A DNA stretch of 64,000 bases from positions 2,119-66,118 of the forward strand of contig BTRA01000002.1 in NCBI GenBank assembly GCA_036986155.1. The letters are read 5' to 3'. The notes below the pieces were generated by a model that made no database searches, was not told the origin of the DNA, and saw only the letters and a list, made by a program, of their open reading frames with translations. This document shows, one piece after another, positions 5,527 through 47,254 of the stretch (position 1 is the stretch's first letter; every line of letters starts with the position of its first letter). The DNA comes from Gemmatimonadota bacterium (GTDB lineage: Bacteria; Gemmatimonadota; Gemmatimonadetes; Longimicrobiales; Gaopeijiaceae). Position numbers and translations under genes: made by a program.

Positions 5527-7857
5527 CTATCCGAGGTGGGCCCTTAGCAACTCCTGGACCACCTCGGGGTCGGCGTTGCCGTCCGTACTGCGCATCACCT
5601 GTCCGACGAAGAATCCGATGAGACCGTGTTTTCCGCTTCGATATGAGGCCACCTCATCGGGATGGGCGTCTACCAACTCCATGATGATCTGCTCCAGGAT
5701 CTCCGGATCGCTGATCTGAGAGAGCCCGTGGGCCTCGACGATCGCCTCCGGGCTCCCTCCGGACCTCGCCATGACGGCCAGGACCTCCCTTCCGCCCCTC
5801 ACGCTCACGGCTCCGGCTTCGACCATCTCGACGAGGTGAGCGAGGTCGGCGGGCTCGACCGGGAATTCGCTCGGGCTCCGGTCATCCAGGATGCGAATCA
5901 CGTCGTTGATGATCCAGTTGGCGATTTGGCGAACCACCACCGACCCGGTCACGGCCCGCTCGAAGTATTCGGATAGGGTGGCGCTCTGAGCCAGAACTTC
6001 CGCGTCACCCTCGGGCAACCCGAATTCGCTTGTATAGCGGTCGAAACGGGCCGCGGCCTCGGGGTCTTCGGGCCGGTGTACCCGTGGTGTGTTCTGTGCC
6101 GGTACCGGGCTCGGAGGCGGCGGGGCCGCAGCCTCGCTCGCCGTGACCGTGGATGCCGTTTTCTTCGCCCAACTGTCACGAAGCGTGACGGTACGATTGA
6201 AGACCAGGGAGTCCGGAGTGGAGTCCGCCTCATCCCGGTAAAAATAGCCCTGCCGCTCGAACTGGTAATGCCTATCGGGCGGGTCGGACGCCACCGATGG
6301 CTCGACCCGCGCATCGGCCAGGACGACCAGAGATTCGGGATTGATGCCGTCCCGGAAGTCCTCGCCCTCCTCGACGTCGTCCGGGTTCTCCTTGAGGAAG
6401 AGCCGATCGTAGAGGCGCACCTCTACGGGTAGCGAATGAACGGCCGAGACCCAATGAATGGTCCCCTTGATTCTCCGCCCGTCCGGGGTCGTTCCGCCTC
6501 GCGTATCCGGGTCGTACGTACAGTGGATCTCCTTGATTTTGCCGTCCGCCGACTTCACGACGTCCACGCACTTGACGACATACCCGTACCGGAGGCGCAC
6601 CTCCCGTCCGGGTGCCAATCGGTGAAAGCCCTTTGGGGGTTTCTCCGAAAAGTCGTCGCGCTCGATGAGCAGCTCACGCGTAAACGGTACGGCTCGAGAT
6701 CCCTCCTTTCCGATATCCGACGGGAAGTAGGGCGCCTCCAACTCCTCCGTCTCCCCAGCAGGGTAATTCGTGAGCACGAGCTTCAGTGGCCGCAGGACGC
6801 ACATCACGCGAGGCGCCGTGGGGTTGAGATCCGTTCGAATGGAATACTCCAGTTTGCCGAGGTCCACTCGGTTCTGGACCTTCGCGACCCCGATCATGTC
6901 GCAGAACGCTCGGATCGCGGTGGGCTGTACGCCCCGTCGCCGGAGGGCCGCGAGCGTAGGCATGCGAGGGTCGTCCCAGCCATTCACCAGGCCGGCCTCG
7001 ATCAGGGGGAGTAGTCGACGCTTGCTGACGACTGTGTATGCGAGGTTCAGGCGGGCGAACTCATACTGGCGTGGATGAGGCTTGGGTACCTCCAGGTTGT
7101 CGAGAATCCAATCGTAGACCTCGCGGTTGTTCTCGAACTCGAGAGTACACAGCGAGTGCGTGATGCCCTCGATGGAGTCCGACAAGCCATGGGCGAAATC
7201 GTACAGTGGGTAGATGCACCACTCGTCACCGGTCCGATAGTGGTGGGCTCGCCGGATCCGGTAGAGCAGGGGGTCGCGCATCAACATGTTCGGCGACTCC
7301 ATGTCGATTTTCGCACGCAGAACATGGGCGCCGTCCGCAAACTCGCCCGCTCGCATCCGCCGGAAGAGGTCGAGGTTTTCCTTCGGAGACCTGTCCCGGT
7401 ATGGACTGGGCTTCCCGGGGGCGGTGACGGATCCCCGCAGAGTGCGAATCTCCTCTTCGGTCGACGAGTCTACATATGCCTTCCCGGACTCGACGAGCTG
7501 CTCGGCGTAGCCGTAGAGTCGCTCGAAGTAATCCGAAGCGTGGAAGAGGTTGTCGCCCCAGTCGAAGCCCAACCAGCGGATATCCTCCTTCATCGCTTCG
7601 ACGTAACGCTCGTCCTCGGTGGTGGGGTTCGTATCATCGAACCGGAGGTGGGTTACGCCGTCGTGTTCGGCCGCCGCACCGAAGTTCAGGCAGATGGACT
7701 TCGCGTGCCCGATGTGGAGGAAGCCGTTCGGCTCGGGAGGGAAGCGTGTGACCACCCTTCCCCCGTGTGTCCCGGCTAAGACATCCTCGCGGATGATGGC
7801 CCGGATGAAGTCCAGCCCCTCGGCCGTGTTTCCCTCGTTCATGGTGCTCGATCCCAC
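5527..7857 (-). CDS. glnS: Glutamine--tRNA ligase with a C-terminal GatB/YqeY-like domain
   Basis: The class I HIGH motif is present (PEPNGFLHIGHAK) and GlnRS core blocks are present. The C-terminal ~150 aa (...ANWIINDV...GLIGFFVGQVMRSTDGNADPEVV...) resemble the GatB/YqeY tail. Alternative start ATG at 7842. Confidence 0.95.
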   Translation of the reverse strand: MGSSTMNEGNTAEGLDFIRAIIREDVLAGTHGGRVVTRFPPEPNGFLHIGHAKSICLNFGAAAEHDGVTHLRFDDTNPTTEDERYVEAMKEDIRWLGFDWGDNLFHASDYFERLYGYAEQLVESGKAYVDSSTEEEIRTLRGSVTAPGKPSPYRDRSPKENLDLFRRMRAGEFADGAHVLRAKIDMESPNMLMRDPLLYRIRRAHHYRTGDEWCIYPLYDFAHGLSDSIEGITHSLCTLEFENNREVYDWILDNLEVPKPHPRQYEFARLNLAYTVVSKRRLLPLIEAGLVNGWDDPRMPTLAALRRRGVQPTAIRAFCDMIGVAKVQNRVDLGKLEYSIRTDLNPTAPRVMCVLRPLKLVLTNYPAGETEELEAPYFPSDIGKEGSRAVPFTRELLIERDDFSEKPPKGFHRLAPGREVRLRYGYVVKCVDVVKSADGKIKEIHCTYDPDTRGGTTPDGRRIKGTIHWVSAVHSLPVEVRLYDRLFLKENPDDVEEGEDFRDGINPESLVVLADARVEPSVASDPPDRHYQFERQGYFYRDEADSTPDSLVFNRTVTLRDSWAKKTASTVTASEAAAPPPPSPVPAQNTPRVHRPEDPEAAARFDRYTSEFGLPEGDAEVLAQSATLSEYFERAVTGSVVVRQIANWIINDVIRILDDRSPSEFPVEPADLAHLVEMVEAGAVSVRGGREVLAVMARSGGSPEAIVEAHGLSQISDPEILEQIIMELVDAHPDEVASYRSGKHGLIGFFVGQVMRSTDGNADPEVVQELLRAHLG

Positions 7858-8664: not shown

Positions 8665-11184
8665 CTACAGGCCCTCTGCGACCTCACGGAGTTCAGCCTG
8701 CCGCCGTACGTCCGCTTCCTCGAGTGCCGCTTGGATCGCCGGACAGCGGACACGGACTTCATCGAGGTCATCGCGCCTCAACTCGTAGAGTGCGCAAGGC
8801 GTTACTGCCCGGCAGGTAGCGGTGCGAGGCGTATTATGCAGCAAGGCGGTCTCACCGAAGAAGTCGCCGGCCATGAGCGTGGCGAGGTCTTCGGACACAT
8901 CCGCCTTGAGGAGTGAAACGCGGATCACTCCACGAGCCACCAGGAACAGCGACGATCCCGTGGTGCCCTGCCGCACGATGACTTCGCCCGCGGGTGCCGT
9001 GCGCCGCCGCAGTCTGCGGGCCAGGAGGCCGAATTCTTCGGGCGGCGTGTCCTGGAAGAACGGGACTTTCTTGAGGAGTTCCTCGGGGCTCACTTGGAGC
9101 TTCACGACCTGGCTGGCCCGGAGCGTTCTCAGCTCCTCCGCCATCTCTTGAAGCATGGTCTCTGCTACACCCTCTGGGATGATGCCTGAATGAGCCATTT
9201 CTTCGATCGCCTCGCGCTCGGCGTGCAACACCAAGCGGTCGGCCAGTCGCTCCTGCGCGGCGGAAACGAACTCGGGGAAGAGCTCGGCATTCTGATCGAG
9301 GCGGCTGCGCGCGTTCTCGTGCCAATACTCGTAGGCCGCCCTGGCCTCGTCCACGATGTCGGGGCGCGCCCTGTCGATCTCGGCGAGTTCGCCGAGTTCA
9401 TCGAGCACGCAGCGGCTGCCCCGGGAGCGGGCCCAGGCGATCTCATAATCCCGCGCTGTGCGATTGGCCCTCAACCCCTCGACGATCCCGCCGAGCCCCG
9501 GAATCCCGTCCATGATGCGATAGAGCACGTTCTCCAGGCGCTCGCCGGTTGGGGGGTGAAGTGTGAAGCCCGGAAGGTTCGCGTCGTGGCGGATTCCCTC
9601 GGTCTGTAGCTCGATCGAGTGGGTGAGATTCCGGTAGGCGCGTTCCGAGAGATGGCCCCGCGAGAACATTTGGTAGTACAGCGTGTTCTCGACGCCGAAG
9701 CACCTGAGATGGAGGAGCTTGCGCTCTTCGTCCAGGTCGAGTTCGTCCGCCCGTAGCTGCTCGAGTGCGGCCTTCATCGTAGCGATCCCCTCCTCGCATC
9801 GGTCTCGGATGCCCTCTGCGATACGAGGAGCGAACAGGCCGCCCGCTCGCAGCTCTGGGATTTGTTCGAGGGTCCTAGTCTTGGCCGAAAGCAGACCTTC
9901 GAAGCGAGCTAGGCGGTCGGAGAGCGGAGGCACGTGAAGGCCGAAGCGCCGCACGAGGTGCTCCATGGTCAGGCCTTGGAAAATCAGCGTGAAGAGCACC
10001 GCCCCTGCAACGAGAACGACAAACGTCTCCCGCAGGCCCTCCGCGTCTTCCGGCACGACACTCAGCGCGATGGCCAGCGCGACGCCGCCACGCAGTCCAC
10101 CCCAGAACATCACGGTTCGGTATCGAACGTCGACTGGATCGGAACCCGGAAGGCGGCCGACAAGCGGTACCAGGGTGAAGATGACCAGGGCCCGCGAAGC
10201 GATCATCGCGAGGATCACCCAACCGAGGGCGGGGAGGTACCGAGCGATCCCTGAGATGTCTGCGGTCTGCCCGATGGTGACGCCGACCAGCAGAAAGATG
10301 AGGGCGTTCGCCACAGTGGAAGCGTACTCCCAGAAGTGGACCATATAACCCGCCACCGACGGCGAGATCTTGGCCTTGCCCCATCCGCCGATCACCATGC
10401 CGGCCGCGACCGTGGCCATGACGCCACTCAACCGCAAGGTCTCTTCGGCCAGCACGAAGGAGAAGTAGGCCAGGACGGTGGTGAGCGAGATTTCGATGAA
10501 CGCGTCGCCCTCCACCCGGCCCAACGCCAACCCCACAAGCACGGCGGCCGCCCACCCGACCAGGAGCCCCCCGAGAAAGACGAGGAAGAAATCGCCGACG
10601 CCGAGCAGGATCGTTTGGGAGGTAATCACTCCGGCGGCCATGATGCCCACAAGGATGTTCGCCAATACGATGGCGGTCGCGTCGTTGAACAGGCTCTCGC
10701 CCTCGACGAGGATCGTCAGGCGCTTGGGGGCACCGAGTTGACGGAAGAGGGAGATCACGGCGACCGGGTCTGTGGCGCTGAGGATCGACCCGAGCAGCAG
10801 CGCCTCAGGCCACCCCATGCCGGTCGCGAATACCATGACCGCGCCGATCACGGCGGTCGAGATCAGCAGGCCCGGGATCGCGAGCATCAACACGGAGGAG
10901 AGGTTCTCCCGGAGCGCTCTGACTTCGAGATTGAATGCGGACTCGAAGACCAGCGCCGGAAGCAGCACGAAGAACACCAACTCGGGAGGCATGTCCAGGT
11001 CGAGGACGCCGCCCAGCGCCTCTCCGCCGACCTTCGCCATCTGCGCCAGCGCGATCCCAACCAGCACGAGGGCGACCGTGAAGGGCATTCGCACCCTTTT
11101 CGCGAGCGCCATCGTGCCGGCTGCGACCAACAACAAAGTGACCGCCGAATAGACGATCTGGACGATTTGGTGACCTCCCCCCAC
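8665..11184 (-). CDS. CPA1 (NhaP-type) Na+/H+ antiporter fused to a C-terminal cyclic-nucleotide-binding domain
   Basis: The membrane domain carries NhaP blocks (SILSATDPVAV, EGESLFNDA). The C-terminus carries a cNMP-binding signature (FFGETALL...PRTATCRA). The start is placed at GTG 11184, just after the upstream gene's stop. The track ORF extends to 11328 inside that upstream gene. Confidence 0.88.
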   Translation of the reverse strand: MGGGHQIVQIVYSAVTLLLVAAGTMALAKRVRMPFTVALVLVGIALAQMAKVGGEALGGVLDLDMPPELVFFVLLPALVFESAFNLEVRALRENLSSVLMLAIPGLLISTAVIGAVMVFATGMGWPEALLLGSILSATDPVAVISLFRQLGAPKRLTILVEGESLFNDATAIVLANILVGIMAAGVITSQTILLGVGDFFLVFLGGLLVGWAAAVLVGLALGRVEGDAFIEISLTTVLAYFSFVLAEETLRLSGVMATVAAGMVIGGWGKAKISPSVAGYMVHFWEYASTVANALIFLLVGVTIGQTADISGIARYLPALGWVILAMIASRALVIFTLVPLVGRLPGSDPVDVRYRTVMFWGGLRGGVALAIALSVVPEDAEGLRETFVVLVAGAVLFTLIFQGLTMEHLVRRFGLHVPPLSDRLARFEGLLSAKTRTLEQIPELRAGGLFAPRIAEGIRDRCEEGIATMKAALEQLRADELDLDEERKLLHLRCFGVENTLYYQMFSRGHLSERAYRNLTHSIELQTEGIRHDANLPGFTLHPPTGERLENVLYRIMDGIPGLGGIVEGLRANRTARDYEIAWARSRGSRCVLDELGELAEIDRARPDIVDEARAAYEYWHENARSRLDQNAELFPEFVSAAQERLADRLVLHAEREAIEEMAHSGIIPEGVAETMLQEMAEELRTLRASQVVKLQVSPEELLKKVPFFQDTPPEEFGLLARRLRRRTAPAGEVIVRQGTTGSSLFLVARGVIRVSLLKADVSEDLATLMAGDFFGETALLHNTPRTATCRAVTPCALYELRRDDLDEVRVRCPAIQAALEEADVRRQAELREVAEGL

Positions 11185-11186
11185 GA

Positions 11187-12278
11187 CTACGCTCTCCCCG
11201 CCACGGGCCTGGAGATCATCGCCCCTCCTACATGGTCGCATACGGCCCTGATCTCGCTGGGCGATCCCAGGAGGATCAGGACGGACTTTTCCGCCAGCGT
11301 CATGCCGGCGGGTGGGTTGTAGCACCACTGGCCGCTGGGTTCACGGCATGCCACAAGGAGCGCGTTCGAAATCCTCCCCAGGTCGAGTGCTCGGATCTCC
11401 TTGCCGACAGCGGAAGATCCGGGGGGTAGGGTTACCTCGTCGATTCGGAGGTTGGCGTCTCGATCTCGCAGCATCGTATCGAGGAAGGACACTACCGTCG
11501 GACGGATCAACTCGGAGGCTAACCGGAGACCGCCGATGAAGTTGGGTGATACGACCGCGTCCGCCCCGACCCGTCGGATCTTGTCGCTGGAGTCCACGTC
11601 TGCCACCCTCGACACGATTCGCAGTGAAGGATTGAGTTGGCGGGCGCTCAGGGTCACGACCAGGTTCTCCTTGTCGCTCTCTGTGCACGCGACCAGACCG
11701 GCGGCGCGTGCGATTCCGGCCGATTCGAGGATCTCGTCGCTGGCAGGGTCCCCCACTACGATCGGAGTGTCTGGGAGCTCTTTTCGAACGTGGTCCCACC
11801 GCTCCGCGTGATCGCAGATGATCACGATCTCGCGCATTACCGCCAGCAACTCGGCCGCCGTGTAAAGGGCCGTACCTCCGGAGCCGCATACGATGAGATG
11901 GTCGGAAAGGTTCGCTATTGTCTTCTCCACCTGTCGCCTCCGGAAGACGTGTCCTAGGTGGCCCTCGAGAATGAACGCGGTGGCCGTGGTCAGAAAGTAG
12001 AAAACAGCACCCATTCCGACGAGGATGAGGACGGCGGTGAAGAGGCGTCCGCCGGGACTGCCGCTCAAATCGATGATTTCCCCATACCCCACCGTGGTGA
12101 GGGTGATGATGGTCATGTAGAAGGCGTCGACCCAGCCAGCGGCCGGGTCGATGATCCCGTAAAAGGCCGTTCCGGCGCCAATGACCGCGATCATGATGAA
12201 CACGACACGGGAGAGGCGTGCCTTCAATCGGCGGAGGTCTTCTTCCCAATCGCCTTGCGGCGCGTCGTAGGGATTCAA
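11187..12278 (-). CDS. Two-TM potassium channel with an RCK (TrkA-N/TrkA-C) domain, MthK/Kch-like
   Basis: Carries the selectivity filter TLTTVGYGE. A Rossmann-like segment LIVCGSGGTA follows, and a TrkA-C-like C-terminus. Confidence 0.9.
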   Translation of the reverse strand: MNPYDAPQGDWEEDLRRLKARLSRVVFIMIAVIGAGTAFYGIIDPAAGWVDAFYMTIITLTTVGYGEIIDLSGSPGGRLFTAVLILVGMGAVFYFLTTATAFILEGHLGHVFRRRQVEKTIANLSDHLIVCGSGGTALYTAAELLAVMREIVIICDHAERWDHVRKELPDTPIVVGDPASDEILESAGIARAAGLVACTESDKENLVVTLSARQLNPSLRIVSRVADVDSSDKIRRVGADAVVSPNFIGGLRLASELIRPTVVSFLDTMLRDRDANLRIDEVTLPPGSSAVGKEIRALDLGRISNALLVACREPSGQWCYNPPAGMTLAEKSVLILLGSPSEIRAVCDHVGGAMISRPVAGRA

Positions 12279-12505
12279 GGGCTAGCGAGGGACGGAGGAA
12301 GCGGTCCGGGCCATGGACCGGAACAAACCCGTCTGCAGATTGGCCGACTCAATGTTTGGCGGCGCACGTGGAAGCGCAAGAATTCGATCGCCCACCCAGT
12401 TGATCAACATGGGAGATAGAAGCACTGTACGCATTGCACGGGGATGGTCGATGCGGGCATCTTTACGCCGTCGTGAACGACAAGACCACCCTACAGCAGG
12501 ACCTC

Positions 12506-13126
12506 ATGGCGCACATCCCCTACGTACCCTATGAAGAAGCCGATGGCCTTCTGGGAGAGCTGTATTCTCGCTACGCCGCGGCGGACGGGCGGTTGGACAA
12601 CATCGTCCGTATCCATTCGCTGAATCCTCCTTCGATGCAGCACCATCTGCAGCTCTACTCCCATTTGATGCGAGGCCGGTCCCCCCTAAGCCGAGTGCAG
12701 AGAGAGATGATCGCTGTGACGGTGTCCGCCGCGAACGACTGCTTCTATTGAATGAACCATCACGGAGCGGGTCTCCGTCGGCTGTTGGGGAGCAGCGAGG
12801 TTCCCCGGGCACTGGCTCGGGATTATCGATGCGCCGAGATTTCCGCGCAGGATCGGGCCATGTTGGACTACGCCGTGCGCCTGACGCGGGAGCCGGGTGG
12901 GATGGGAGAAGTCGATGTTGCCGCCCTGAAGGAGGCCGGCTTCGACGACACAGGCATCTTGGATATCTGTCAGGTAAGCGCGTATTACAACTACGTGAAC
13001 CGTCTCGCAGACGGCCTTGGTGTCCGACTCGAGCCTGAATGGACGGATGACGAGATGACGATCACGCACGAGGAGTTTGGAGTGCGCCGCGAGCAGAGGC
13101 TCGAGAGGACGGGCGGGGACGAGTGA
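12506..13126 (+). CDS. AhpD/carboxymuconolactone-decarboxylase-like 'peroxidase-related enzyme'; candidate selenoprotein with in-frame TGA at 12749-12751 (CFYU motif)
   Basis: Track ORFs 12434..12751 and 12752..13126 are in the same frame, separated only by TGA. The joined sequence ...VSAANDCFY-[TGA]-MNHHGAGL... recreates the family's CxxC..H active-site block, with the TGA at the second Cys position. The likely start is ATG 12506 (MAHIPYVPYEEADG...). The stop overlaps the hutH start (GTGA). Confidence 0.7.
12762..12778 (+). promoter_or_regulatory. bSECIS-like hairpin downstream of the in-frame TGA
   Basis: ACGGAG-CGGGT-CTCCGT: a 6-bp stem with a 5-nt loop containing GG. The loop starts about 19 nt after the U of the UGA, which is the spacing expected for bacterial SECIS elements. 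Confidence 0.5.
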
Positions 13127-14625
13127 TCGAACTCACGGGTCATTCGTTGACGCTGGAGGCGGTGGAAGCGGTCGCGAACGACCGAGTCGAAGTATCCCTG
13201 GGCCGGCAGGCTCGGGTCGCCATCATCGAAGCACGTGGGTTTGTCCGGCGACTGCTCGAGACGGGCGAGAAGATCTACGGCGTCACTACGGGTTTCGGTC
13301 GTCTCGCCGATGTCGTGATTGCCCCGAACCAGCAGGTGGAGCTCCAGCGCAACCTGATTCGAAGTCATTCGGCGGGTGTCGGAGATGCTCTTTCCTGCTC
13401 CGAGGTGCGAACTATCCTGTTGCTGCGCGCGAACGCGCTGTGTCGGGGACATTCGGGATGTCGGGTGGAAGTCGTCGAGCGGCTGATTGAAATGCTGAAC
13501 CACGGCATCCATCCAGTCGTCCCAGAGATGGGATCGGTGGGCGCTTCGGGGGACCTCGCTCCGCTCGCGCACATCGCTCTGACGATCCTGGGGGAGGGGT
13601 TCGTGCTAGGCGATGGTTCGCCGGTTGCTAGTGCGGACGCCCTGGCGGCGGTGGGGTTGGAGCCCATGGACCTCAGAGAAAAAGAGGGCCTGGCGTTGAT
13701 CAACGGCACTCAGGCTCATACGGGGCTGGGCGTGCTCGCCCTCCGCGCGGCCGAGCGAGCGCTCGAAGCCATCGAGGTTGCGGGGGCCATGAGTCTCGAC
13801 GCCCTGAAGGGCACGCCCGAAGCCTTTCGTGAGGAGGTCCAGGCAGTGCGGCCACATGCAGGACAAGCCGCGAGCGCCCGGCGATTGTGGTCCCTTCTCC
13901 TGGGCTCCGAAATCCGCGAATCTCATCGCATCGACGATCCTCGCGTCCAGGATGCATACTCCTTGAGATGTATGCCTCAGGTTCACGGTGCGGGCCGCTC
14001 GGCGCTCGCCTATGTTCGAGGAGTGGTTGAAGTGGAGGTGAACAGCAGCACGGACAACCCGCTCATCTTCCCCGAGGCGGGTGTGGTCGTGTCGGCGGGA
14101 AACTTCCACGGGCAGATCGTCGCTCAGGCGTTGGATTTTCTGACCATCGCGATCACGGACCTCGCGTCCATCAGCGAACGAAGGATCGAACGCTTGTTGA
14201 ATCCGGACCTCTCGGGACTGCCGGCCTTCCTGACGACGTCACCGGGCCTGAGTTCGGGTCTCATGATCGCTCAAGTTACCGCTGTGGACCTGCTGGCGGA
14301 GATGCGTGTGCTGGCCCATCCAGTCAGCACGGACTCGGTGCCGACAAGCGCCAGCCAGGAGGATCATGTGTCGATGGGAATGGCCGCTGCTCGGAAGGCG
14401 CGACGGGCTGTCCGTAACCTGGAGTACGTGGTGGCGATGGAGTTCCTGGCGGCAGCGCAGGCGATCGAGTTCCATCGTCCGTTGAAATCCGGGCCTCCGA
14501 TCGAAGCGGCGTTGGCGTTGATCCGGGAGCGGGTGCCGCGCCTGGAAGACGACCGTAGCCTGACAGGGGATATGGAATCCATCGCGGATCTCGTGAGAAG
14601 CGGTGTATTGGGAGTGGTCGCATGA
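13123..14625 (+). CDS. hutH: Histidine ammonia-lyase
   Basis: 500 aa. The MIO-forming motif [11 protein letters not shown] is present, and HAL blocks run the full length. Confidence 0.97.
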
Positions 14626-14638
14626 ACCGGAGCGTGAG

Positions 14639-16318
14639 GTGACTGGGTCGGCGGTGGGGCAGGGGGTCCGCGTGGTGAGAGCTCCACGGGGGTCGGAGTT
14701 GTCGTGCCGCGGATGGACTCAGGAAGCAGCTTTGCGCATGCTCATGAACAACCTCGATCCGGAGGTCGCCGAGCGCCCTGAGGATCTTGTGGTCTACGGC
14801 GGCACGGGACGGGCTGCTCGAAGCTGGCAAGCCTTCGACCAGATCGTGGCATGCCTGCGAGCGCTCGCCGGCGACGAAACCTTGCTTATCCAGTCGGGGA
14901 AACCGGTGGGCGTGTTCAAGACTCACCGGGGAGCGCCCCGGGTACTGATCGCCAACTCGAATCTGGTAGGCCGCTGGGCGAACTGGGAGACGTTCCGCGA
15001 GTTGGAGCGGCAGGGGTTGATCATGTACGGCCAGATGACGGCTGGCTCGTGGATCTATATCGGCACACAAGGCATTCTCCAGGGCACGTACGAGACGTTC
15101 GGCGCGATGGCGCGGGAGCACTTCGGTGGGTCGCTCGAGGGAAGGTGGGTGTTGACTGGGGGGATGGGCGGCATGGGAGGTGCGCAGCCCCTGGCCGCTA
15201 CCATGAACGGAGGTTCGATCGTGGTGGTCGAAGTCGACGCCTCGCGTATCGAGCGGCGCCTGGAAACTCGTTACTGTGATCGAATGACCGCCGACTTGGA
15301 CGAGGCTTTGGAGTGGGTCCAGAGCGCGGCGGCCGAAGGTGAGGCGGTGAGTATCGGCCTGGTTGGGAATTGCGCCGAGGTCCTGCCCGAGATCGCGAGC
15401 CGGGGCATCGTGCCCGACATCGTGACGGATCAGACGTCGGCGCACGACCCGCTGAACGGATACGTGCCTCCCGGGCTGGATCTGGCGGCGGCGGCGCGCC
15501 TGCGCGATGCGGACCCGGATGATTATCTGCGGCGGTCCTCTGCGGGAATGCGTGTGCATTGCGAAGCGATGGTCGAGCTGATGAACGCCGGCGCGGTCGC
15601 CGTGGACTATGGCAACAACCTCCGCGCTCAGGCGCGCGACGCGGGGTTCGAGAACGCGTTCGCGTTCCCCGGCTTCGTGCCCGCGTACATTCGGCCTCTT
15701 TTCTGTGAGGGGCGGGGTCCCTTCCGATGGGTCGCTCTGTCGGGTGACCCGGCGGACATTCACCGTACGGATCGCCTGGTTCTGGAGATGTTTCCGGAGG
15801 ACGAGCATCTCGGTCGTTGGATCCGGCTTGTTCGAGAGCGGGTCGAGTTCCAAGGCCTGCCCGCTCGGATCTGCTGGCTGGGCCAAGGAGACAGGGCCCG
15901 CTTCGGGGTTGCCATGAACGACCTTGTAGCCAATGGGGAGGTCTCCGCGCCCATCGTGATCGGGCGGGACCATCTGGACACCGGCTCGGTGGCATCGCCC
16001 TTCCGGGAGACGGAGGCGATGCTCGACGGGAGTGACGCCATCGCCGACTGGCCGATCTTGAACGCCTTGCTGAACACTGCGTCCGGGGCGAGCTGGGTGT
16101 CTTTCCACCATGGAGGTGGAGTCGGTATCGGTGACTCGCTACATGCCGGGCAGGTGCTCGTGGCCGATGGATCGGCTGAGATGGCAGTGCGGATCGAGAG
16201 GGTTCTGACCAACGATCCTGGACTGGGCGTGGCCCGGCACGCCGATGCCGGATACGAGAAGGCCGTGGAGACAGCGCACCGGGAGGGCATCGTCATCCCC
16301 GGCGAAGCGCCTTCTTAG
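14639..16318 (+). CDS. hutU: Urocanate hydratase
   Basis: Urocanase blocks are present ([38 protein letters not shown]). GTG 14639 has GGAG upstream. The track ORF starts at 14603, inside hutH. Confidence 0.95.
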
Positions 16319-16340: not shown

Positions 16341-17711
16341 TCAGGACAAGAGCTGCCTCATGGTGTTTCGGTAGCGGTCGGCGATGGGCTCCTCGCTGCC
16401 GTGGTGGCCGTCCCGCACTACCCAGCTACCGCCGACCATTACGTCCGAGACGGGCGATCCCGTGGCTGAAAACACCCACGAATCCAGAAGAGTATCACCG
16501 GTTCGCCCAACCAGCGTGGGGTGATCAGGGTCGAGCACCACGATGTCGGCCCGATGCCCCTCTGCGAGGGCGCCCAACGGACGCCCCGCCGCCCGAGCAC
16601 CGCCTTTCAGGGTCTCCTGATAGAGGAACTCCCCCGTGGATCGGTCATGCCCTCGAGCCGAGACGTTGCGGTTCTCCCACAACAGGCGCTGGCCGTATTC
16701 GAGGAGGCGCAACTCGGCAGCGGGGTCTACCGTCACGTGGCTGTCTGATCCGATGCCGATGGTCCCACCCGCGCCGAGGAAGTCCGAGAGAGGGAATACG
16801 CCATCACCGAGATTGGCCTCCGTGGTCGGGCACAGGCCTACGACCGCGCCTGACGTCGAGAGGGCACGGATTTCATCGGGTGCGAGGTGAGTCGCATGGA
16901 TGATACACCAGCGCGAGTCGAGCGGGCTGTTGTCGACCAGCCACTCCACCGGCCGGGCTCCGAGTGCAGCGACGCACTCGTCGACCTCGCGGCGCTGCTC
17001 CGCCACATGCATGTGGATCGGCGCCTCAGAGTCGAGGGACCAGATTGCGGATACCGTGGGCGCCAACTGCTCGGCAGGCACCGCCCGAAGACTGTGAAGA
17101 CCCAGGCCAACCCGGCGCTGCGGATCACCTGCAGTCTCGGCAATGAGCCCCTCGAGCAGCAGGAGCAGGATGTCCGCGTCCATGACGAAACGCCGTTGGG
17201 CATCCGACAACGGGGCACCGAAGCCCCCGTCGCAATAGAGCGTAGGAACGTGCGTGATTCCGATTCCCGCGGTGGCCGCCGCCCATAGGATGGCGTCCGA
17301 CATCGCCCCGAGAGGTGCGTAGGCCCCCCCCTGCGGATCCTTGTGCAGGTAGTGGAACTCCACGACGGACGTGAACCCGGCTTGCAACATCTCAACGTAG
17401 AGCTGTGCCGCGATGGCCTGCACGTCGTCCGGCGTCAGCGAAGAAACGAAGTCGTACATCACGTCACGCCAACTCCAAAAGGTCCCCGCCTCTTCCGAAC
17501 CATGCTCGGCCAATCCGGCCATTCCGCGCTGAAACGCGTGCGAGTGGAGATTCACCGCGCCGGGGAGGGCCACGCCCTGTAGGATGTCGGCCCCACCGGG
17601 ATCGGAGTCGGGTCGAACGTCCGTAAAGAATCCTTGCTCGTCGACACCGAGGGAGACTGCGTTGGACCATCCGGTAGGGAGCAGTGCGCTTTGGGCAAAG
17701 TAGGACGCCAT
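16341..17711 (-). CDS. hutF: Formimidoylglutamate deiminase (amidohydrolase superfamily)
   Basis: 456 aa with the metal-binding NLHSHAFQR motif. It sits in hut context, between hutU and hutI. Confidence 0.85.
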   Translation of the reverse strand: MASYFAQSALLPTGWSNAVSLGVDEQGFFTDVRPDSDPGGADILQGVALPGAVNLHSHAFQRGMAGLAEHGSEEAGTFWSWRDVMYDFVSSLTPDDVQAIAAQLYVEMLQAGFTSVVEFHYLHKDPQGGAYAPLGAMSDAILWAAATAGIGITHVPTLYCDGGFGAPLSDAQRRFVMDADILLLLLEGLIAETAGDPQRRVGLGLHSLRAVPAEQLAPTVSAIWSLDSEAPIHMHVAEQRREVDECVAALGARPVEWLVDNSPLDSRWCIIHATHLAPDEIRALSTSGAVVGLCPTTEANLGDGVFPLSDFLGAGGTIGIGSDSHVTVDPAAELRLLEYGQRLLWENRNVSARGHDRSTGEFLYQETLKGGARAAGRPLGALAEGHRADIVVLDPDHPTLVGRTGDTLLDSWVFSATGSPVSDVMVGGSWVVRDGHHGSEEPIADRYRNTMRQLLS

Positions 17712-17814
17712 GCGCCGAGTCTAGACCGTGGATCGGGGCGAGGCTAGTGTTGCTCGACCTTCGGGAAGCCTACCCTTGGGGACCAGCGCCGAAACCTGGG
17801 CGGAGAGCGGGAAC

Positions 17815-19050
17815 TTGGACGCCGCAAGCAGGATCTGGACAAACGCGAATGTCGCGACGTTCGCCACGAGCAGCACGGAGCCGTATGGATCGGTCCTTGG
17901 AGCAGCCGTAGCCGTCAGGGATGGACGCATCCTCTGGGTCGGTCGCGATGACTCGATACCGGCTGGGCTTCTCGCCTCACAGACCGAGATGGTGGATCTC
18001 GGCGGTCGTTGGGTTACACCGGGCTTGGTCGACTGTCACACCCATCTCGTGTTCGCTGGTGACCGCGCCGACGAGTTCGAGCGCCGGCTCCTGGGTGAGT
18101 CGTACGAGGAGATCGCCCGTGGTGGGGGGGGGATCAGGTCCACCGTGGCGGCAACACGGGCGGCCTCGTTCGATACGTTGCTCTGCGCCGCCGAGGGACG
18201 CCTGCGTGCGTTGGCTTCCGAGGGCGTGACCACGGTAGAGATCAAGTCCGGTTACGGCCTGGAGCTGGACACAGAGATGCGTATGCTACAGGTGGCGAGG
18301 GAGCTTGGGAGGCGCAATCCCGTACGAGTAGTGGGCACGCTCTTGGGCGCCCATGCTCTGCCGCAGGAATTCGAAGGTCGTTCTGCCGAGTATCTCTCGG
18401 TGGTATGTGACGAGATGATTCCGCGGGCTGTCGAGGAGGGCCTCGCCGAGTGTGTAGACGCTTTCTGTGAAGAAATCGCGTTCACTGCAGAGGAGTGCGG
18501 GGCGGTCTTCGATGCGGCCAAGGCGAGAGGACTGCCGGTGAGACTTCATGCCGACCAGCTGTCGGACTCCGGCGGGGCGGAGCTGGCGGCGAGTCATGGG
18601 GCGCTCTCGGCGGACCATCTGGAGTTCGCCTCGGAGGGGGGGGTCCGGGCCATGGCGGCGGCCGGCACGGTGGCGGTGCTCCTGCCCGGCGCGTTCTACC
18701 ATCTCCGGCAGACGACGATGCCTCCCGTGGACACGCTGCGAGAGAGCGGCGTGGTGATCGCGTTGGCGACCGACGCAAACCCGGGCTCGTCTCCGGTTCT
18801 GTCTCCACTCGCCATCCTTCACATGGGGTGCACCCTATTCGGTTTGACCCCTGAAGAGGCGTTGGCCGGAATGACGAGAAACGGGGCCCGCGCATTGGGG
18901 CTTGGAGAGGAGATCGGTACGATAGAGGAAGGGAAAGCCGCCGACTTGGCCGTATGGGACGTCGATCATCCGCGCGAGCTGTGCTATTGGCTGGGCGGGA
19001 CGCCGTGTCACGCCGTGATCAGCGGAGGAGAATTCGCGTACTCCACCTGA
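17815..19050 (+). CDS. hutI: Imidazolonepropionase
   Basis: HutI blocks are present ([24 protein letters not shown]). The TTG at 17815 with GGAG about 9 nt upstream gives a typical ~411-aa protein. The track start at 17728 would leave only 16 bp to the divergent hutF. Confidence 0.9.
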
Positions 19051-19113: not shown

Positions 19114-20433
19114 TCAGCCTCCGCGGCGACCGCTGCGGCGCGCCCTGCTACTTCCTCCGGATCGGGATCGGCTGGGGGCGGAGCGGGCCCTGGAACCGCT
19201 CCGGCTGGGGCGTGACCTTGCACGAGGGGCGGAGCGCGCCCGGCTACGCGGCGGTGCTGATCGAGCCCTGGGCGCCGAGCGGGCCCGGCTACGTGGTGCT
19301 GAACGGGCCCGGCTACGCGGTGCCGAACGCGCCTTGGGTGCCGAACGCGCCTTGGGCGCCGAGCGGGCCCGGCTACGTGGTGCCGAACGGGCGCGGCTAC
19401 GCGGTGCCGAACGAGCCTGAGGTGCCCGGCGCGTGCGACTGCGGGGCGCCGATCTAGCCCGAGACTCCGACCGGATGCCTCTTCCGGGCTCCGACCGGAC
19501 ACGATTGTCGCGGTTGGTGGTCGGTCTGCTGCGCGGAGTGACCGTCGACCGATTACTGCGGGCCCCCGTACGGGCGGAGGCGCGGTTCGTCGCCGTCGCA
19601 GAACGACGGACCGCACTCCTGCCGCGCCGGCTCTGCAGGAGGTCTGATGGCCTGGACCGCGGGCCAACCCGGGCGCGGCGGGCCGACGTGGATCGTGACG
19701 CACGCGTCGGCGTGCGAGCCGTTACACGGCGCCCTGCTGCGGCGCTGCGCGTTCCGGAGAGGGAGTTCGTCGAACTCGCTCGGGTCCGTGGGGTCGCTGT
19801 TCGGCGCTGAGCCACCCTGGTACTCGGTGTTTCCTTGAATCCCGTGCCACTTCGGTTTAGAGCCGAGTACCTCAAGAGCGGTCGGCGGGCGCCGACAAAC
19901 CCGCCGCCGAACGATCCGGTTGGAAAAGCCACGGCCCAATGGCGCGGTGAATGCGCACCGTACCCGTACCTGTACCCGTAGCCGTACCCGTAGCCGTACC
20001 CGTAGCTCGGCGAGTAATAGGAACTAGCGAAGAGCCCTCCGAACCCAAAGCCGAGCGAGATAGAGAATGACGAGTAGAACCCCGGGCGGTAGCCATAGCT
20101 CGTCGGCCCGTACGCCCCGTAGTAATACGCTGGTCCGTAGGAGTATCCGATCGGGTGGAAGCCGAACGAGCGAGGTCGGCGGTACCGGTAGCGATCCCAG
20201 CACTCGTACGAGTACCAGTCGTAGTAGAGGTGGTCCAAGCACGGGTCGTAGACCGCGTAATCGTCCACGTAGTAGTCGGACTCGTAACCGGAGTAACTGT
20301 ACGCGGCCCCGAATACCGCTTCGGTGCCGGACGTGTATGACACCTGGCTCGAGGTATACTGGCCCGAGACGGACGCCGGAATCAGGGCCAGCCCAGCGAG
20401 TAGCAGCGCAGCGGTGTTGTTTAGAGCACGCAC
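19114..20433 (-). CDS. Secreted low-complexity protein: signal peptide, Tyr/Gly-rich region, and an Arg/Ser-rich tail with tandem ARSAP repeats (hypothetical)
   Basis: GTG 20433 is preceded by GGAGGA with a 7-nt spacer. The N-terminus (M)RALNNTAALLLAGLALIPASVSGQ looks like a Sec signal. The central part is very Tyr-rich, including GYGYGYGYGYRYGYG. The C-terminus has at least 10 copies of ARSAP within RSRARSAP-type units. Confidence 0.65.
   Translation of the reverse strand: MRALNNTAALLLAGLALIPASVSGQYTSSQVSYTSGTEAVFGAAYSYSGYESDYYVDDYAVYDPCLDHLYYDWYSYECWDRYRYRRPRSFGFHPIGYSYGPAYYYGAYGPTSYGYRPGFYSSFSISLGFGFGGLFASSYYSPSYGYGYGYGYGYRYGYGAHSPRHWAVAFPTGSFGGGFVGARRPLLRYSALNRSGTGFKETPSTRVAQRRTATPRTRASSTNSLSGTRSAAAGRRVTARTPTRASRSTSARRARVGPRSRPSDLLQSRRGRSAVRRSATATNRASARTGARSNRSTVTPRSRPTTNRDNRVRSEPGRGIRSESRARSAPRSRTRRAPQARSAPRSRARSAPRSRARSAPKARSAPKARSAPRSRARSAPRSRARSAPRARSAPPRSRARSAPRARSRPSRSGSRARSAPSRSRSGGSSRARRSGRRGG
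19231..19433. repeat. Imperfect 18-24-nt tandem repeats that encode the ARSAP/RSRARSAP units
   Basis: Recurring units gggcccggctacg(c/t)ggtgc(c/t)gaac and gcgccttggg(t/c)gccgaac can be read directly in the sequence. Confidence 0.75.
19959..20006. repeat. Hexanucleotide tandem repeat (8 units cgtacc/cgtagc) encoding (GY)n
   Basis: cgtacc cgtacc tgtacc cgtagc cgtacc cgtagc cgtacc cgtagc. Confidence 0.8.
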
Positions 20434-20616
20434 GGTACTATCCTCCGTCAAGGCGATCTTGATCTATTCCAGTGCAGGGCCTGTGCCAAAGTTTTCGCCT
20501 GTTCTAAGATACTACTGAGCATACACTTATCGGAACTGTACCATATCGCAGCGGACTCCCGAACTGTCCACTTCAGGGGACATCGGTCGCATTTCAGTAA
20601 CGTCTGGTGGACACCC

Positions 20617-47054: not shown

Positions 47055-47254
47055 ATGCGTCCTTCGATCCCGAGTCCGGTGGGATGGAACTACATGGTCG
47101 ATCCTGAACGGTTGGCGCGCGTACCGCAATAGTCGGCGGGGGCGACTCGGGTGTCACCCGCCCCGGTACTGGAGGGGCTGCACCGGTGAGGTGCCTCGGG
47201 TTACCTTTCGCCCTTCCGAGCCGGCATCGCGCGCGTCCAACCACCAGGGCGAAC

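What the first reader, a model, noticed from the sequence alone, without database searches (positions are those of the whole stretch)
12434..13126. AhpD/CMD-like 'peroxidase-related' gene with in-frame TGA at the second Cys of CxxC (CFYU): candidate selenoprotein coupled to hutH
Two track ORFs (12434..12751 and 12752..13126) share a frame and are separated only by TGA (12749-12751). Read through, the junction is VSAANDCFY-U-MNHHGAGL. This corresponds to the conserved CxxC-x2-H redox block of the CMD/AhpD-like peroxidase-related family. Both halves are needed for a complete domain.

A hairpin ACGGAG-CGGGU-CUCCGU (12762-12778), with GG in the loop, begins 11 nt after the UGA. That is the geometry expected for a bacterial SECIS. 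Sec-containing AhpD-like proteins have been reported in computational selenoproteome surveys, so the family assignment is plausible.

The gene context looks unusual. The stop overlaps the hutH start (GTGA), which makes it the first gene of a hutH-hutU transcription unit. The alternative explanation is a TGC-to-TGA nonsense mutation, giving a pseudogene.
Basis: partly seen in the sequence, partly recalled or inferred. Interest (0 to 1): 0.72.

Follow-up and report, generated by a model that had tools for sequence, protein, structure and literature searches.

The report
Selenocysteine AhpD-like gene heading hut operon
The in-frame TGA is a genuine selenocysteine codon in a member of the already known AhpD-like (TIGR01926, CxxU) selenoprotein family. 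The only new detail is that, in one group of Gemmatimonadota, this gene is the translationally coupled first gene of the histidine-degradation (hutH-hutU) operon.

Summary
A single reading frame, ATG 12506 to TGA 13126 (206 codons), is interrupted once by TGA at 12749-12751, at the second Cys of the AhpD CxxC motif.

The read-through protein passes TIGR01926 and keeps the whole AhpD proton relay (E67, C79, Y81, U82, H86). At least 62 of the 80 closest species-representative loci, from many phyla, carry TGA at this same column. More distant relatives, and one hut-linked orthologue, carry Cys.

The part after the TGA is under purifying selection (dN/dS 0.12-0.26). The 6-bp hairpin at 12762-12778 is kept across phyla by compensatory changes and by extreme synonymous-codon bias that is seen only in the Sec forms. 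TGA is otherwise the commonest stop codon in the window. A pseudogene or a recoded TGA is therefore excluded.

This family has been a recognised predicted selenoprotein since 2005, so the gene is a new member of a known kind.

The hut coupling is real and conserved. It is found in a single Gemmatimonadota/Longimicrobiales clade (15 held loci besides the window), mostly with a 4-nt stop/start overlap onto hutH. I found no description of it in the literature.

Sec machinery could not be checked for this genome, because none lies in the 64 kb window.

The parts
12506..13126 (+). Coding sequence of the Sec-containing AhpD-like / 'peroxidase-related enzyme' protein. It has 206 residues (23.2 kDa), with Sec at residue 82, and its own stop is TGA 13124-13126.
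   Evidence: TIGR01926 scores 144.2 bits (cut-off 81.8) and spans residues 20-178 across the TGA. Pfam CMD also matches. The N-terminus matches homologues. The mass was computed. dN/dS is 0.10 before the TGA and 0.23 after it against L090.
12749..12751 (+). In-frame UGA, read as selenocysteine (U82). It sits at the second position of the C79-F-Y-U82 redox motif.
   Evidence: The same column is TGA in at least 62 of 80 species-representative loci and TGC/TGT in the more distant ones. It aligns with the second Cys of CxxC in PDB 3C1L and 2PFX. 'W' in the database protein P0001 is a TGA codon.
12762..12778 (+). Bacterial SECIS-type hairpin inside the coding sequence (codons H86-G-A-G-L-R91). The stem is ACGGAG/CUCCGU and the apical loop is CGGGU, starting at the 11th nucleotide after the UGA.
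   Evidence: 88.8% of 384 cells pair, against 28-54% when the 3' partners are slid, and 3 of 6 pairs show changes on both sides. RNAalifold recovers the core 3 pairs on its own. Codon bias in the Sec forms: paired Gly is GGR 61/61 (43% elsewhere), Arg is CGT 43/50 (14% elsewhere), Leu is CTY 59/68 (36% elsewhere). The Cys forms show none of this.
12704..12763 (+). Active-site block with the AhpD proton-relay residues: E67 (12704-12706), C79 (12740-12742), Y81 (12746-12748), U82 (12749-12751) and H86 (12761-12763).
   Evidence: The spacing is identical to E36/C48/Y50/C51/H55 of P. aeruginosa PA0269 and E118/C130/H132/C133/H137 of M. tuberculosis AhpD (PMC3141380). E67, C79, Y81, H85 and H86 are invariant in alignment A1.
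12250..12505 (+). 256-nt intergenic region upstream of the gene, presumed to hold the operon promoter or regulatory region.
   Evidence: It lies between the divergent unknown ORF 11341-12249 (-) and ATG 12506. No sigma-70 consensus was found, so its promoter role is inferred only.
13123..14625 (+). hutH, histidine ammonia-lyase. Its GTG start overlaps the upstream stop (GTGA).
   Evidence: TIGR01225 scores 664.6 bits (cut-off 539). The Ala-Ser-Gly MIO triad is at residues 141-143. The best PDB matches are histidine ammonia-lyases.
14603..16318 (+). hutU, urocanate hydratase. The ORF overlaps the end of hutH.
   Evidence: TIGR01228 scores 942 bits (cut-off 375). The thiourocanate hydratase models fall below their cut-offs.
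16341..17711 (-). hutF, formimidoylglutamate deiminase, convergent with hutU.
   Evidence: NF006684 scores 618 bits (cut-off 525) and TIGR02022 scores 583 (cut-off 413).
17728..19050 (+). hutI, imidazolonepropionase.
   Evidence: TIGR01224 scores 463.5 bits (cut-off 298).

Best explanation
Window 12506-13126 encodes a functional 23-kDa selenoprotein of the AhpD-like 'peroxidase-related' family (TIGR01926/COG2128).

**Decoding (inferred from comparative data).** UGA 12749-12751 is decoded as selenocysteine. SelB-GTP-Sec-tRNA(Sec) would be recruited by the 17-nt hairpin at 12762-12778, which lies within the codons for H-G-A-G-L-R.

**Catalysis (by homology, not tested).** Sec82 takes the place of the second Cys of the CxxC motif. 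In M. tuberculosis AhpD, as I recall from the literature, that second Cys (Cys133) is the attacking nucleophile. Sec82 lies within an intact Glu67/Cys79/Tyr81/His86 proton relay. The protein most likely works as a selenol/thiol oxidoreductase. Sec82 would attack an oxidised substrate (a hydroperoxide, or a sulfenic acid or disulfide on a partner protein), Cys79 would resolve the intermediate into a selenenylsulfide, and an unknown reductant would recycle it.

**Operon (shown and inferred).** The gene is the first cistron of an ahpD-like-hutH-hutU unit. Its stop overlaps the hutH start, so the two are translationally coupled. This arrangement arose once and has been kept in a Longimicrobiales-type Gemmatimonadota clade. 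The synteny and the overlap are shown. Co-transcription, and any specific role in histidine catabolism, are inferred.
For: **Family and active site**
- TIGR01926 scores 144 bits (cut-off 81.8) across the TGA.
- PDB homologues 3C1L, 2PFX and 6K40 align with E-values of 6e-34 to 1e-27; in the two alignments shown (3C1L, 2PFX) the second Cys of CxxC falls at the TGA column.
- Relay residues are invariant and spaced as in PA0269 and MtAhpD.

**Recurrent TGA**
- Dozens of database proteins end at ...NDCFY or begin at (M/V)NHHGAGLR.
- At least 62 of 80 GTDB species loci, from Gemmatimonadota, Chloroflexota, Acidobacteriota, Marinimicrobia, Bacillaceae, SAR324 and Planctomycetota, have TGA there.

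**Translation past the TGA**
- dN/dS is 0.12-0.26 against five relatives.
- dN/dS is 0.23 at dS 0.47 against L090, which is 84.6% identical in nucleotides and keeps the TGA and an identical hairpin.

**RNA element**
- Pairing is 88.8% against 28-54% when slid. Compensatory changes include C-G to U-A (costing Arg to His) and G-C to C-G (costing Gly to Ala).
- Codon bias reaches p about 1e-18 to 1e-30, in Sec forms only.
- The hairpin has decayed (4 of 6 pairs, peptide HHGDSLR) in the hut-linked Cys orthologue L088.

**Standard genetic code**
- TGA ends 15 of 27 annotated genes in the window, including this one.

**Sec machinery next to a family member**
- A SelB homologue (E = 7e-81) lies 1.7 kb upstream of the TGA-containing gene in L029.

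**Operon**
- hutH and hutU identities are confirmed.
- The same order is found in L003-L013 and L087-L092, with hutH lost or not resolved in the error-ridden L087. These form one clade in an NJ tree.
- A 4-nt (A/G)TGA overlap is present in 11 of 12 intact junctions examined, counting the window.

**Literature**
- The AhpD-like CxxU family is described in PMC1088965, PMC2398784 and PMC13188914.
Against: - No selA, selB, selD or tRNA-Sec is present in the window or in the hut-linked loci held. This is uninformative for 64 kb, but Sec competence of this genome is not shown.
- I found no paper documenting Sec use in Gemmatimonadota.
- No curated Rfam SECIS family matches.
- Single-sequence folding of the hairpin is not significant.
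- RNAalifold supports only 3 of the 6 pairs, with a weak consensus energy.
- The shuffle and binomial statistics ignore phylogenetic relatedness.
- One hut-linked orthologue (L092) carries CGA (Arg) at the column, so loss of the Sec residue can be tolerated, or it is an assembly error.
- No biochemical function is known for any TIGR01926 selenoprotein.
- No conserved clade-specific CxxC target was seen in HutH or HutU.
Confidence: 0.87

Rival explanations
1. Relic in a genome that has lost Sec decoding. The gene descends from a selenoprotein gene, but in this organism UGA 12749 now simply terminates. That would give a 9.2-kDa N-terminal fragment and an untranslated or separately initiated C-terminal part (ATG 12752).
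For: No Sec machinery is visible in the window. An ATG follows the TGA directly. Losses of the Sec residue occur in the clade: CGA in L092 and a TAG in L008.
Against: Against the close relative L090, the post-TGA part has dN/dS of 0.23 at dS 0.47. The hairpin is identical in nucleotides and the 4-nt coupling to hutH is retained. The ATG after the TGA is not conserved: relatives have ATC, CTG or GTG there. Neither half alone contains a complete domain.
Confidence: 0.07
2. Ordinary pseudogene. A recent TGC-to-TGA nonsense mutation has inactivated a Cys-type AhpD-like gene.
For: TGA is one transition from TGC. Gene callers split the ORF.
Against: TGA is the majority state at this column in at least 62 of 80 species loci from many phyla, with saturated synonymous divergence between them. 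An RNA hairpin specific to the Sec forms is conserved. The region downstream of the TGA is under purifying selection.
Confidence: 0.02
3. Sec-independent read-through or a reassigned code. UGA is read as Trp, Gly or Cys, either by a suppressor or near-cognate tRNA or because the organism uses genetic code 4 or 25.
For: Public databases hold family members translated with W or G at this column.
Against: The 'W' of P0001 is a TGA codon called under another code. In the window, TGA terminates 15 of 27 confidently annotated genes, including this gene itself. The column alternates only with Cys in functional homologues. A SelB-type hairpin with a G-rich apical loop is under selection. SelB is adjacent in L029.
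Confidence: 0.03

Closest known systems
AhpD-like selenoprotein family ('AhpD-like 1', COG2128 / TIGR01926, CxxU motif), from the Sargasso Sea and GOS selenoproteomes (PMC1088965, PMC2398784; listed in the 2026 review PMC13188914)
   Same: It matches the same HMM family above cut-off. It has the same CxxU motif, with Sec at the second position, and a SECIS hairpin just downstream of the UGA. The mix of Sec forms and Cys forms is the same.
   Different: Nothing differs at family level, so this is a member. The operonic, translationally coupled position in front of hutH-hutU is not mentioned in those papers. They report only a Prx-like/AhpD-like neighbour pair. The host lineage (Gemmatimonadota/Longimicrobiales) is not discussed there either.
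NF041238 'AhpD_rel_CFYUT' alkylhydroperoxidase-related (seleno)protein ('hypothetical protein 1' of the Sargasso Sea)
   Same: It has the AhpD-type fold and a nearly identical Sec motif (CFYU-T there, CFYU-M here).
   Different: It is a different, larger protein (model of 357 positions). The window protein scores 57.4 bits against a cut-off of 175 and matches only the C-terminal half of the model. It is not a member.
Mycobacterium tuberculosis AhpD and P. aeruginosa PA0269 (characterised Cys-type AhpD proteins)
   Same: The Glu/Cys/(His or Tyr)/Cys/His proton relay has identical spacing. Tyr81 matches PA0269 Tyr50 (PMC3141380).
   Different: Sec replaces the second Cys. Overall sequence similarity is low (PA0269, as PDB 2O4D, matches at E = 9e-5). 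No ahpC is adjacent: the flanking genes are an unknown ORF and hutH. A role as an AhpC-recycling adaptor is therefore not indicated.
Solved structural-genomics homologues 3C1L (Mlr4105, 'putative antioxidant defense protein'), 2PFX, 2OYO and 2PRR ('uncharacterized peroxidase-related protein')
   Same: They belong to the same TIGR01926-type subfamily. They align over residues 27-178 at E-values of 6e-34 to 5e-21 with the CxxC in register.
   Different: All are Cys forms and none has an assigned physiological function.
E. coli fdhF SECIS (the bacterial SECIS paradigm; from my own knowledge of the literature)
   Same: Both are hairpins inside the coding sequence that start about 11 nt after the UGA, with G and U residues in a small apical loop. 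The minimal functional element is about 17 nt, the size of the hairpin here.
   Different: The sequence is unrelated and no bulged U is evident. SelB binding has not been tested. No Rfam model matches.

Membership tests
TIGR01926 / COG2128 AhpD-like 'peroxidase-related enzyme' | Whole-protein HMM score above the curated cut-off | tested here: met
   The score is 144.2 bits against a cut-off of 81.8. Residues 20-178 match model positions 16-178 of 178, spanning the TGA.
TIGR01926 / COG2128 AhpD-like 'peroxidase-related enzyme' | AhpD catalytic signature E-x11-C-x2-C-x3-H (the proton relay) | tested here: met
   E67, C79, Y81, U82 (in place of Cys) and H86 are present. All but the Sec column are invariant in A1. 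The spacing matches PA0269 and MtAhpD.
TIGR01926 / COG2128 AhpD-like 'peroxidase-related enzyme' | Peroxidase or disulfide-reductase activity | not testable with these tools
   This needs an enzyme assay. No TIGR01926 selenoprotein has been characterised (PMC13188914).
Bacterial selenoprotein gene (SelB/SECIS-dependent UGA decoding) | In-frame UGA aligned with Cys in homologues and conserved among orthologues | tested here: met
   TGA is present in at least 62 of 80 species loci, and TGC/TGT in 10 or more others and in L088 and L089. The column aligns with Cys in PDB homologues.
Bacterial selenoprotein gene (SelB/SECIS-dependent UGA decoding) | Stem-loop immediately 3' of the UGA (about 11 nt spacing) with G in the apical loop, conserved as a structure | tested here: met
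   The spacing and the CGGGU loop are seen directly. Pairing is 88.8% against 28-54% when slid, with 3 covarying pairs. Synonymous-codon constraint is found only in Sec forms. Caveats: the single-sequence z-score is not significant, RNAalifold recovers only 3 pairs, and bSECISearch was not available.
Bacterial selenoprotein gene (SelB/SECIS-dependent UGA decoding) | Purifying selection on the codons downstream of the UGA | tested here: met
   dN/dS is 0.12-0.26, and 0.227 at dS 0.47 against L090.
Bacterial selenoprotein gene (SelB/SECIS-dependent UGA decoding) | selA, selB, selC (tRNA-Sec) and selD present in the same genome | not testable with these tools
   None is in the 64-kb window or in the hut-linked flanks held. 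The rest of the genome is not available. The only positive datum is selB 1.7 kb from the family member in L029, which is from another phylum.
Bacterial selenoprotein gene (SelB/SECIS-dependent UGA decoding) | Selenium actually incorporated at the UGA | not testable with these tools
   This requires 75Se labelling or mass spectrometry.
NF041238 AhpD_rel_CFYUT (seleno)protein | HMM score above the curated cut-off | tested here: not met
   The score is 57.4 bits against a cut-off of 175, and only model positions 153-351 of 357 match.
hut (histidine utilisation) operon | Same strand, no intergenic gap, and conserved gene order with hutH-hutU | tested here: met
   The GTGA overlap is at 13123-13126. 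The same order is seen in L003-L013 and L087-L092, with hutH lost or not resolved in the error-ridden L087. These loci form one clade.
hut (histidine utilisation) operon | Co-transcription with, and a functional requirement for, histidine catabolism | not testable with these tools
   No internal terminator-like site lies between 12506 and 13123. Transcript and mutant data are needed.
M. tuberculosis-type AhpC/AhpD system | Genomic pairing with ahpC (a peroxiredoxin) | tested here: not met
   The adjacent genes are an unknown 302-aa ORF (divergent) and hutH. No recurrent peroxiredoxin neighbour appears in the 80 loci. ORFs under 200 aa elsewhere in the window were not all screened.

The most novel reading that the evidence does not exclude
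The Sec-containing AhpD-like protein is a dedicated accessory of histidine catabolism in Longimicrobiales-type Gemmatimonadota, in effect a new hut gene. It would be made stoichiometrically with HutH through translational coupling. Two possible roles are not excluded. It could keep an oxidation-sensitive component of the pathway reduced, for example the conserved active-site-region Cys283 of HutH or the NAD+ site of urocanase. Alternatively, because ribosomes must pass the inefficient UGA to reach the coupled hutH start, it could tie hutH expression to selenium and redox status. Either role would give the first physiological context for one of the most abundant but functionally unassigned prokaryotic selenoprotein families.
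Probability: 0.3. Interest if true: 0.5.

Novelty: new member of a known kind. Interest (0 to 1): 0.3.

Why it matters
**Annotation.** This gene, and hundreds of its relatives in public databases, is stored as two fragments or with a false Trp or Gly at the Sec position. It should be a single selenoprotein CDS carrying a translation exception.

**Biology.** AhpD-like CxxU proteins are among the most abundant predicted prokaryotic selenoproteins, with 299 genes in GOS (PMC2398784), yet none has an assigned function. A deep, conserved, translationally coupled linkage to hutH-hutU in one clade is a concrete and testable functional lead. That clade includes one Cys-form orthologue in the same position, which offers a natural Sec/Cys comparison.

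The finding also implies that Longimicrobiales-type Gemmatimonadota decode Sec. I could not find this documented.

Tried and rejected
- **Rfam.** The gathering search on the whole window and the permissive search on 12700-12860 found no SECIS or other relevant family.
- **tRNA search.** The window has no tRNA. All held loci together have 8 tRNAs and none is tRNA-Sec.
- **Sec machinery.** Pfam/NCBIfam scans of about 40 window ORFs, plus six-frame tblastn with E. coli SelA, SelB and SelD against the window and 0.95 Mb of held loci, gave only one hit: selB in L029. I ran no further search on SelB, because the 120-hit list would be filled by the query's own phylum.
- **Second selenoprotein gene.** I scanned the window for another TGA-interrupted gene as independent evidence of Sec decoding. 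The 210 TGA-split frames contain no convincing candidate.
- **Ergothionase idea.** I considered that 'hutH/hutU' might be ergothionase and thiourocanate hydratase, given egtB and egtD in the window. This is rejected. hutH passes TIGR01225 and has the Ala-Ser-Gly MIO triad. hutU passes TIGR01228, while the thiourocanate models fall below their cut-offs.
- **Redox target.** I looked for a clade-specific CxxC or extra conserved Cys pair in HutH or HutU. HutH has only two invariant Cys (C113 and C283), and neither protein has a CxxC.
- **General neighbour.** I looked for a recurrent neighbour across the other Sec-form loci (for example Prx or a reductase). None recurs in more than 6 of about 75 loci.
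- **Apparent fusion.** The AhpD-like/urocanase 'fusion' (P0101, L087) lies on a 3x-coverage contig full of frameshifts, so I discounted it.
- **Literature.** Searches for a CMD/AhpD-hut link and for Sec use in Gemmatimonadota found nothing relevant. A search for PDB 6K40 found no paper.
Full report
**1. The observation**

- One reading frame runs from the upstream stop to TGA 13124-13126. It is interrupted once, by TGA at 12749-12751, and the junction reads ...VSAANDCFY-TGA-MNHHGAGLRRL.
- The hairpin ACGGAG (12762-12767) / CGGGU / CUCCGU (12773-12778) starts at the 11th nucleotide after the UGA.
- The gene's terminal TGA overlaps the GTG start of the next gene (GTGA, 13123-13126).
- The ORF listing start (TTG 12434) is probably not the real one. 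Homologues begin at the equivalent of ATG 12506 (MAHIPYVPYEEA).
- This gives a 206-residue product of 23.2 kDa with the TGA at codon 82. Termination there would leave a 9.2-kDa fragment.

**2. Family**

- With Cys substituted at the TGA, the read-through protein scores 144.2 bits on TIGR01926 'peroxidase-related enzyme' (cut-off 81.8). The match covers residues 20-178, so both halves are needed for one domain.
- Pfam CMD (PF02627) also matches.
- The NCBIfam model for a different selenoprotein with a nearly identical motif, NF041238 'AhpD_rel_CFYUT', is not met (57 bits against 175).
- The nearest solved structures are Cys-type structural-genomics proteins: 3C1L, 2PFX, 6K40, 2OYO and 2PRR (E = 6e-34 to 5e-21). 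In the two alignments shown (3C1L, 2PFX) the second Cys of CxxC sits in the TGA column.
- The five residues of the AhpD proton relay are defined for M. tuberculosis AhpD (E118/C130/H132/C133/H137) and P. aeruginosa PA0269 (E36/C48/Y50/C51/H55) in PMC3141380.
- All five are present here with identical spacing, as E67/C79/Y81/U82/H86. All except the Sec column are invariant among homologues.

**3. Is the TGA a Sec codon?**

*(a) Recurrence*
- In the 5.8-billion-protein collection, dozens of distinct homologues end exactly at ...NDCFY or begin exactly at (M/V)NHHGAGLR. Other 'full-length' entries show C, W, R or G at the column.
- For P0001 the 'W' is a TGA translated under another genetic code.
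- A scan of one genome per GTDB species returned 80 loci. At least 62 have TGA at this column. They include Gemmatimonadota, Chloroflexota, Acidobacteriota, Marinimicrobia, Bacillaceae, SAR324 and Planctomycetota. The 10 Cys forms are among the more distant ones.

*(b) Selection*
- The part after the TGA has dN/dS of 0.12-0.26 against relatives with near-saturated synonymous divergence.
- Against L090, dN/dS is 0.23 at dS 0.47. L090 is a contig 84.6% identical in nucleotides that keeps the TGA, the identical hairpin and the overlap with hutH.

*(c) The RNA element*
- Over 65 Sec-form sequences, the 6-bp helix is paired in 88.8% of cells, against 28-54% when the 3' partners are slid by 1-3 columns.
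- Three pairs have changes on both sides. C-G to U-A costs an Arg-to-His replacement in Bacillaceae and Anaerolineaceae loci. G-C to C-G costs Gly-to-Ala in Acidobacteriota loci.
- The strongest signal is synonymous-codon choice within the Sec forms:

| Position after the TGA | Codon choice at that position | Same choice elsewhere in the same genes |
|---|---|---|
| Paired Gly (+5) | GGR 61/61 | 43% |
| Arg (+9) | CGT 43/50 | 14% |
| Leu (+8) | CTY 59/68 | 36% |

- The Gly two codons later, which lies in the loop, uses all four codons.
- The Cys forms show no such bias and no conservation of the HGAGLR peptide. The hut-linked Cys orthologue L088 has a decayed hairpin with 4 of 6 pairs.

*(d) Genetic code*
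- TGA is the commonest ordinary stop in the window, ending 15 of 27 annotated genes. A reassigned code is excluded.

*(e) Machinery near a family member*
- In L029 (Acidobacteriota), a SelB homologue lies 1.7 kb upstream of the TGA-containing family member (E = 7e-81 to E. coli SelB).

*Caveats*
- The hairpin in this single sequence is not thermodynamically exceptional (z = -1.4), and a different fold is preferred in a 42-nt context.
- RNAalifold recovers only the three core pairs, with a weak consensus energy.
- Some Chloroflexota loci use a shifted register, GGAGC-CGGGCU-GCUCC.
- No Rfam family matches.
- The shuffle and binomial figures ignore relatedness.
- The window contains no selA, selB, selD or tRNA-Sec. 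That is expected by chance for 64 kb, but Sec competence of this particular genome remains inferred.

**4. Context**

- The downstream genes are true hut genes:

| Gene | Model | Score (bits) | Cut-off (bits) |
|---|---|---|---|
| hutH | TIGR01225 | 665 | 539 |
| hutU | TIGR01228 | 942 | 375 |
| hutF (convergent) | NF006684 | 618 | 525 |
| hutI | TIGR01224 | 463 | 298 |

- hutH also has the Ala-Ser-Gly MIO triad at residues 141-143. For hutU, the thiourocanate hydratase models fall below their cut-offs.
- The arrangement AhpD-like, hutH, hutU recurs in L004-L006, L007-L013, L090, L091, L092, the marine L003 and the Cys-form L088. L087 also has the AhpD-like gene beside hutU, hutF and hutI, but hutH is lost or not resolved in that error-ridden contig. 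It recurs nowhere else among the 80 loci.
- These genes form one clade in a neighbour-joining tree. Their genomes are labelled Gemmatimonadota, Gemmatimonadales or Longimicrobiales.
- The stop/start overlap (A/G)TGA is present in 11 of 12 intact junctions, counting the window. L007 has a 14-nt spacer instead.
- Outside this clade the Sec-form gene has no recurrent neighbour.
- No sigma-70 consensus and no internal terminator were found between 12250 and 13123.

**5. How it most likely works**

- *Shown:* family membership, the intact catalytic signature, the Sec column, the conserved hairpin, purifying selection, the conserved synteny and the overlap with hutH.
- *Inferred from established knowledge of bacterial Sec decoding and of AhpD:* SelB binds the hairpin and delivers Sec-tRNA(Sec) at UGA82. 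Sec82, at the position of the nucleophilic Cys133 of MtAhpD (a role I recall from the literature and did not test), attacks an oxidised substrate. Cys79 resolves the intermediate into a selenenylsulfide, and an unknown reductant recycles it.
- *Speculative:* that the substrate is connected with histidine catabolism. I looked for a clade-specific redox target in HutH and HutU and found none. HutH has only the invariant C113 and C283, and there is no CxxC in either protein.

**6. Comparison with what is known**

- The CxxU AhpD-like protein (COG2128) was reported as a new selenoprotein family from the Sargasso Sea in 2005, with 27 genes and a predicted SECIS (PMC1088965).
- It ranked fourth in abundance in the GOS selenoproteome, with 299 genes in 37 samples (PMC2398784).
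- A 2026 review lists it as 'AhpD-like protein, TIGR01926, CxxU' (PMC13188914), and it is a browsable family in BSepDB (PMC13326102).
- The selenoprotein identity is therefore not new.
- I found no paper that links AhpD/CMD proteins with hut genes, and none documenting Sec use in Gemmatimonadota.

**7. Verdict**

The gene is a new member of a known selenoprotein family, not a pseudogene.
- The conserved, translationally coupled position ahead of hutH-hutU in one Gemmatimonadota clade is a modest new detail, and a usable functional lead for a family with no known function.
- Interest is 0.3.

Noticed in passing
window 47186-49529 (+), and 45684-47129 (-): An ergothioneine biosynthesis pair is present: egtB (TIGR03440, 400 bits against a cut-off of 360; SenA is below its cut-off) and egtD (TIGR03438, 336 bits against 291). 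An FAD-dependent pyridine-nucleotide-disulfide oxidoreductase lies divergently next to them. The organism therefore probably makes a histidine-derived thiol about 30 kb from the Sec-AhpD-like/hut operon.
   Followed up: partly
L092 10001-10498 (ENA ERZ25067251 contig_8, 1.0 Mb): This hut-linked orthologue carries CGA (Arg) instead of TGA at the Sec column. That is one transition away, and the hairpin is nearly intact (ACGGAG-CGGGT-CTCCGC) with a GTGA overlap to hutH. It is either a very recent loss of the catalytic Sec or a long-read assembly error. Other database entries with R, G or L at the column (P0015, P0017, P0030, P0041) were not checked.
   Followed up: partly
L029 2437-4344: In an Acidobacteriota MAG, a SelB homologue lies about 1.7 kb upstream of the TGA-containing AhpD-like gene (at 6001-6537), on the same strand. 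It is 31% identical to E. coli SelB over 647 aligned positions covering residues 1-605 (E = 7e-81).
   Followed up: no
public protein collection (P0001, P0005-P0013, P0014-P0120): This selenoprotein family is systematically mis-stored. Entries appear as N-terminal fragments ending ...CFY, as C-terminal fragments starting at or after (M/V)NHHGAGLR, or as full-length proteins with W or G at the Sec position because short contigs were called under genetic code 4 or 25.
   Followed up: yes
L019, L020, L024, L026 (Chloroflexota/Anaerolineae), 13-32 nt after the TGA: These loci lack the common ACGGRG/CUCCGU helix. They can instead form a shifted hairpin, GGAGC-CGGGCU-GCUCC, with the peptide changed to HHGAGLL. 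This looks like a register shift of the SECIS within the same codons.
   Followed up: no
L008 about 1680 (uncultured Gemmatimonadales MAG): An in-frame TAG interrupts the C-terminal part of the hut-linked AhpD-like gene (...DALR*VEFDDRAILD...). It is either a pseudogene in that MAG or an assembly error.
   Followed up: no
L087 (ENA ctg755755_3x_l): On this 3x-coverage contig the AhpD-like C-terminal part appears fused to the urocanase N-terminal domain, with hutF and hutI following and no hutH. The urocanase is broken into four ORFs, so frameshift errors are likely.
   Followed up: partly
window 5527-7857 (-): A class I Glu/Gln-tRNA synthetase (tRNA-synt_1c domains) carries a C-terminal GatB/YqeY domain, giving 776 aa. 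From my own knowledge, this architecture is known for Deinococcus GlnRS.
   Followed up: no
window 8665-11328 (-): A Na+/H+ exchanger is fused to a C-terminal cyclic-nucleotide-binding domain, giving 887 aa.
   Followed up: no
window 1850-3526 (-); L004 3598-5433 and L091 5619-7455: One-carbon enzymes lie near the hut genes. The window has formate-tetrahydrofolate ligase. Relatives have formimidoyltransferase-cyclodeaminase upstream of the operon and lack a convergent hutF. This suggests different routes for formiminoglutamate within the clade.
   Followed up: no
window 11341-12249 (-) and 19114-20451 (-): Two sizeable ORFs flank the hut cluster, of 302 aa and 445 aa. Neither has a Pfam or NCBIfam match. 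In relatives L004 and L091, the divergent upstream position is occupied by an ECF sigma factor plus two unknown genes.
   Followed up: no
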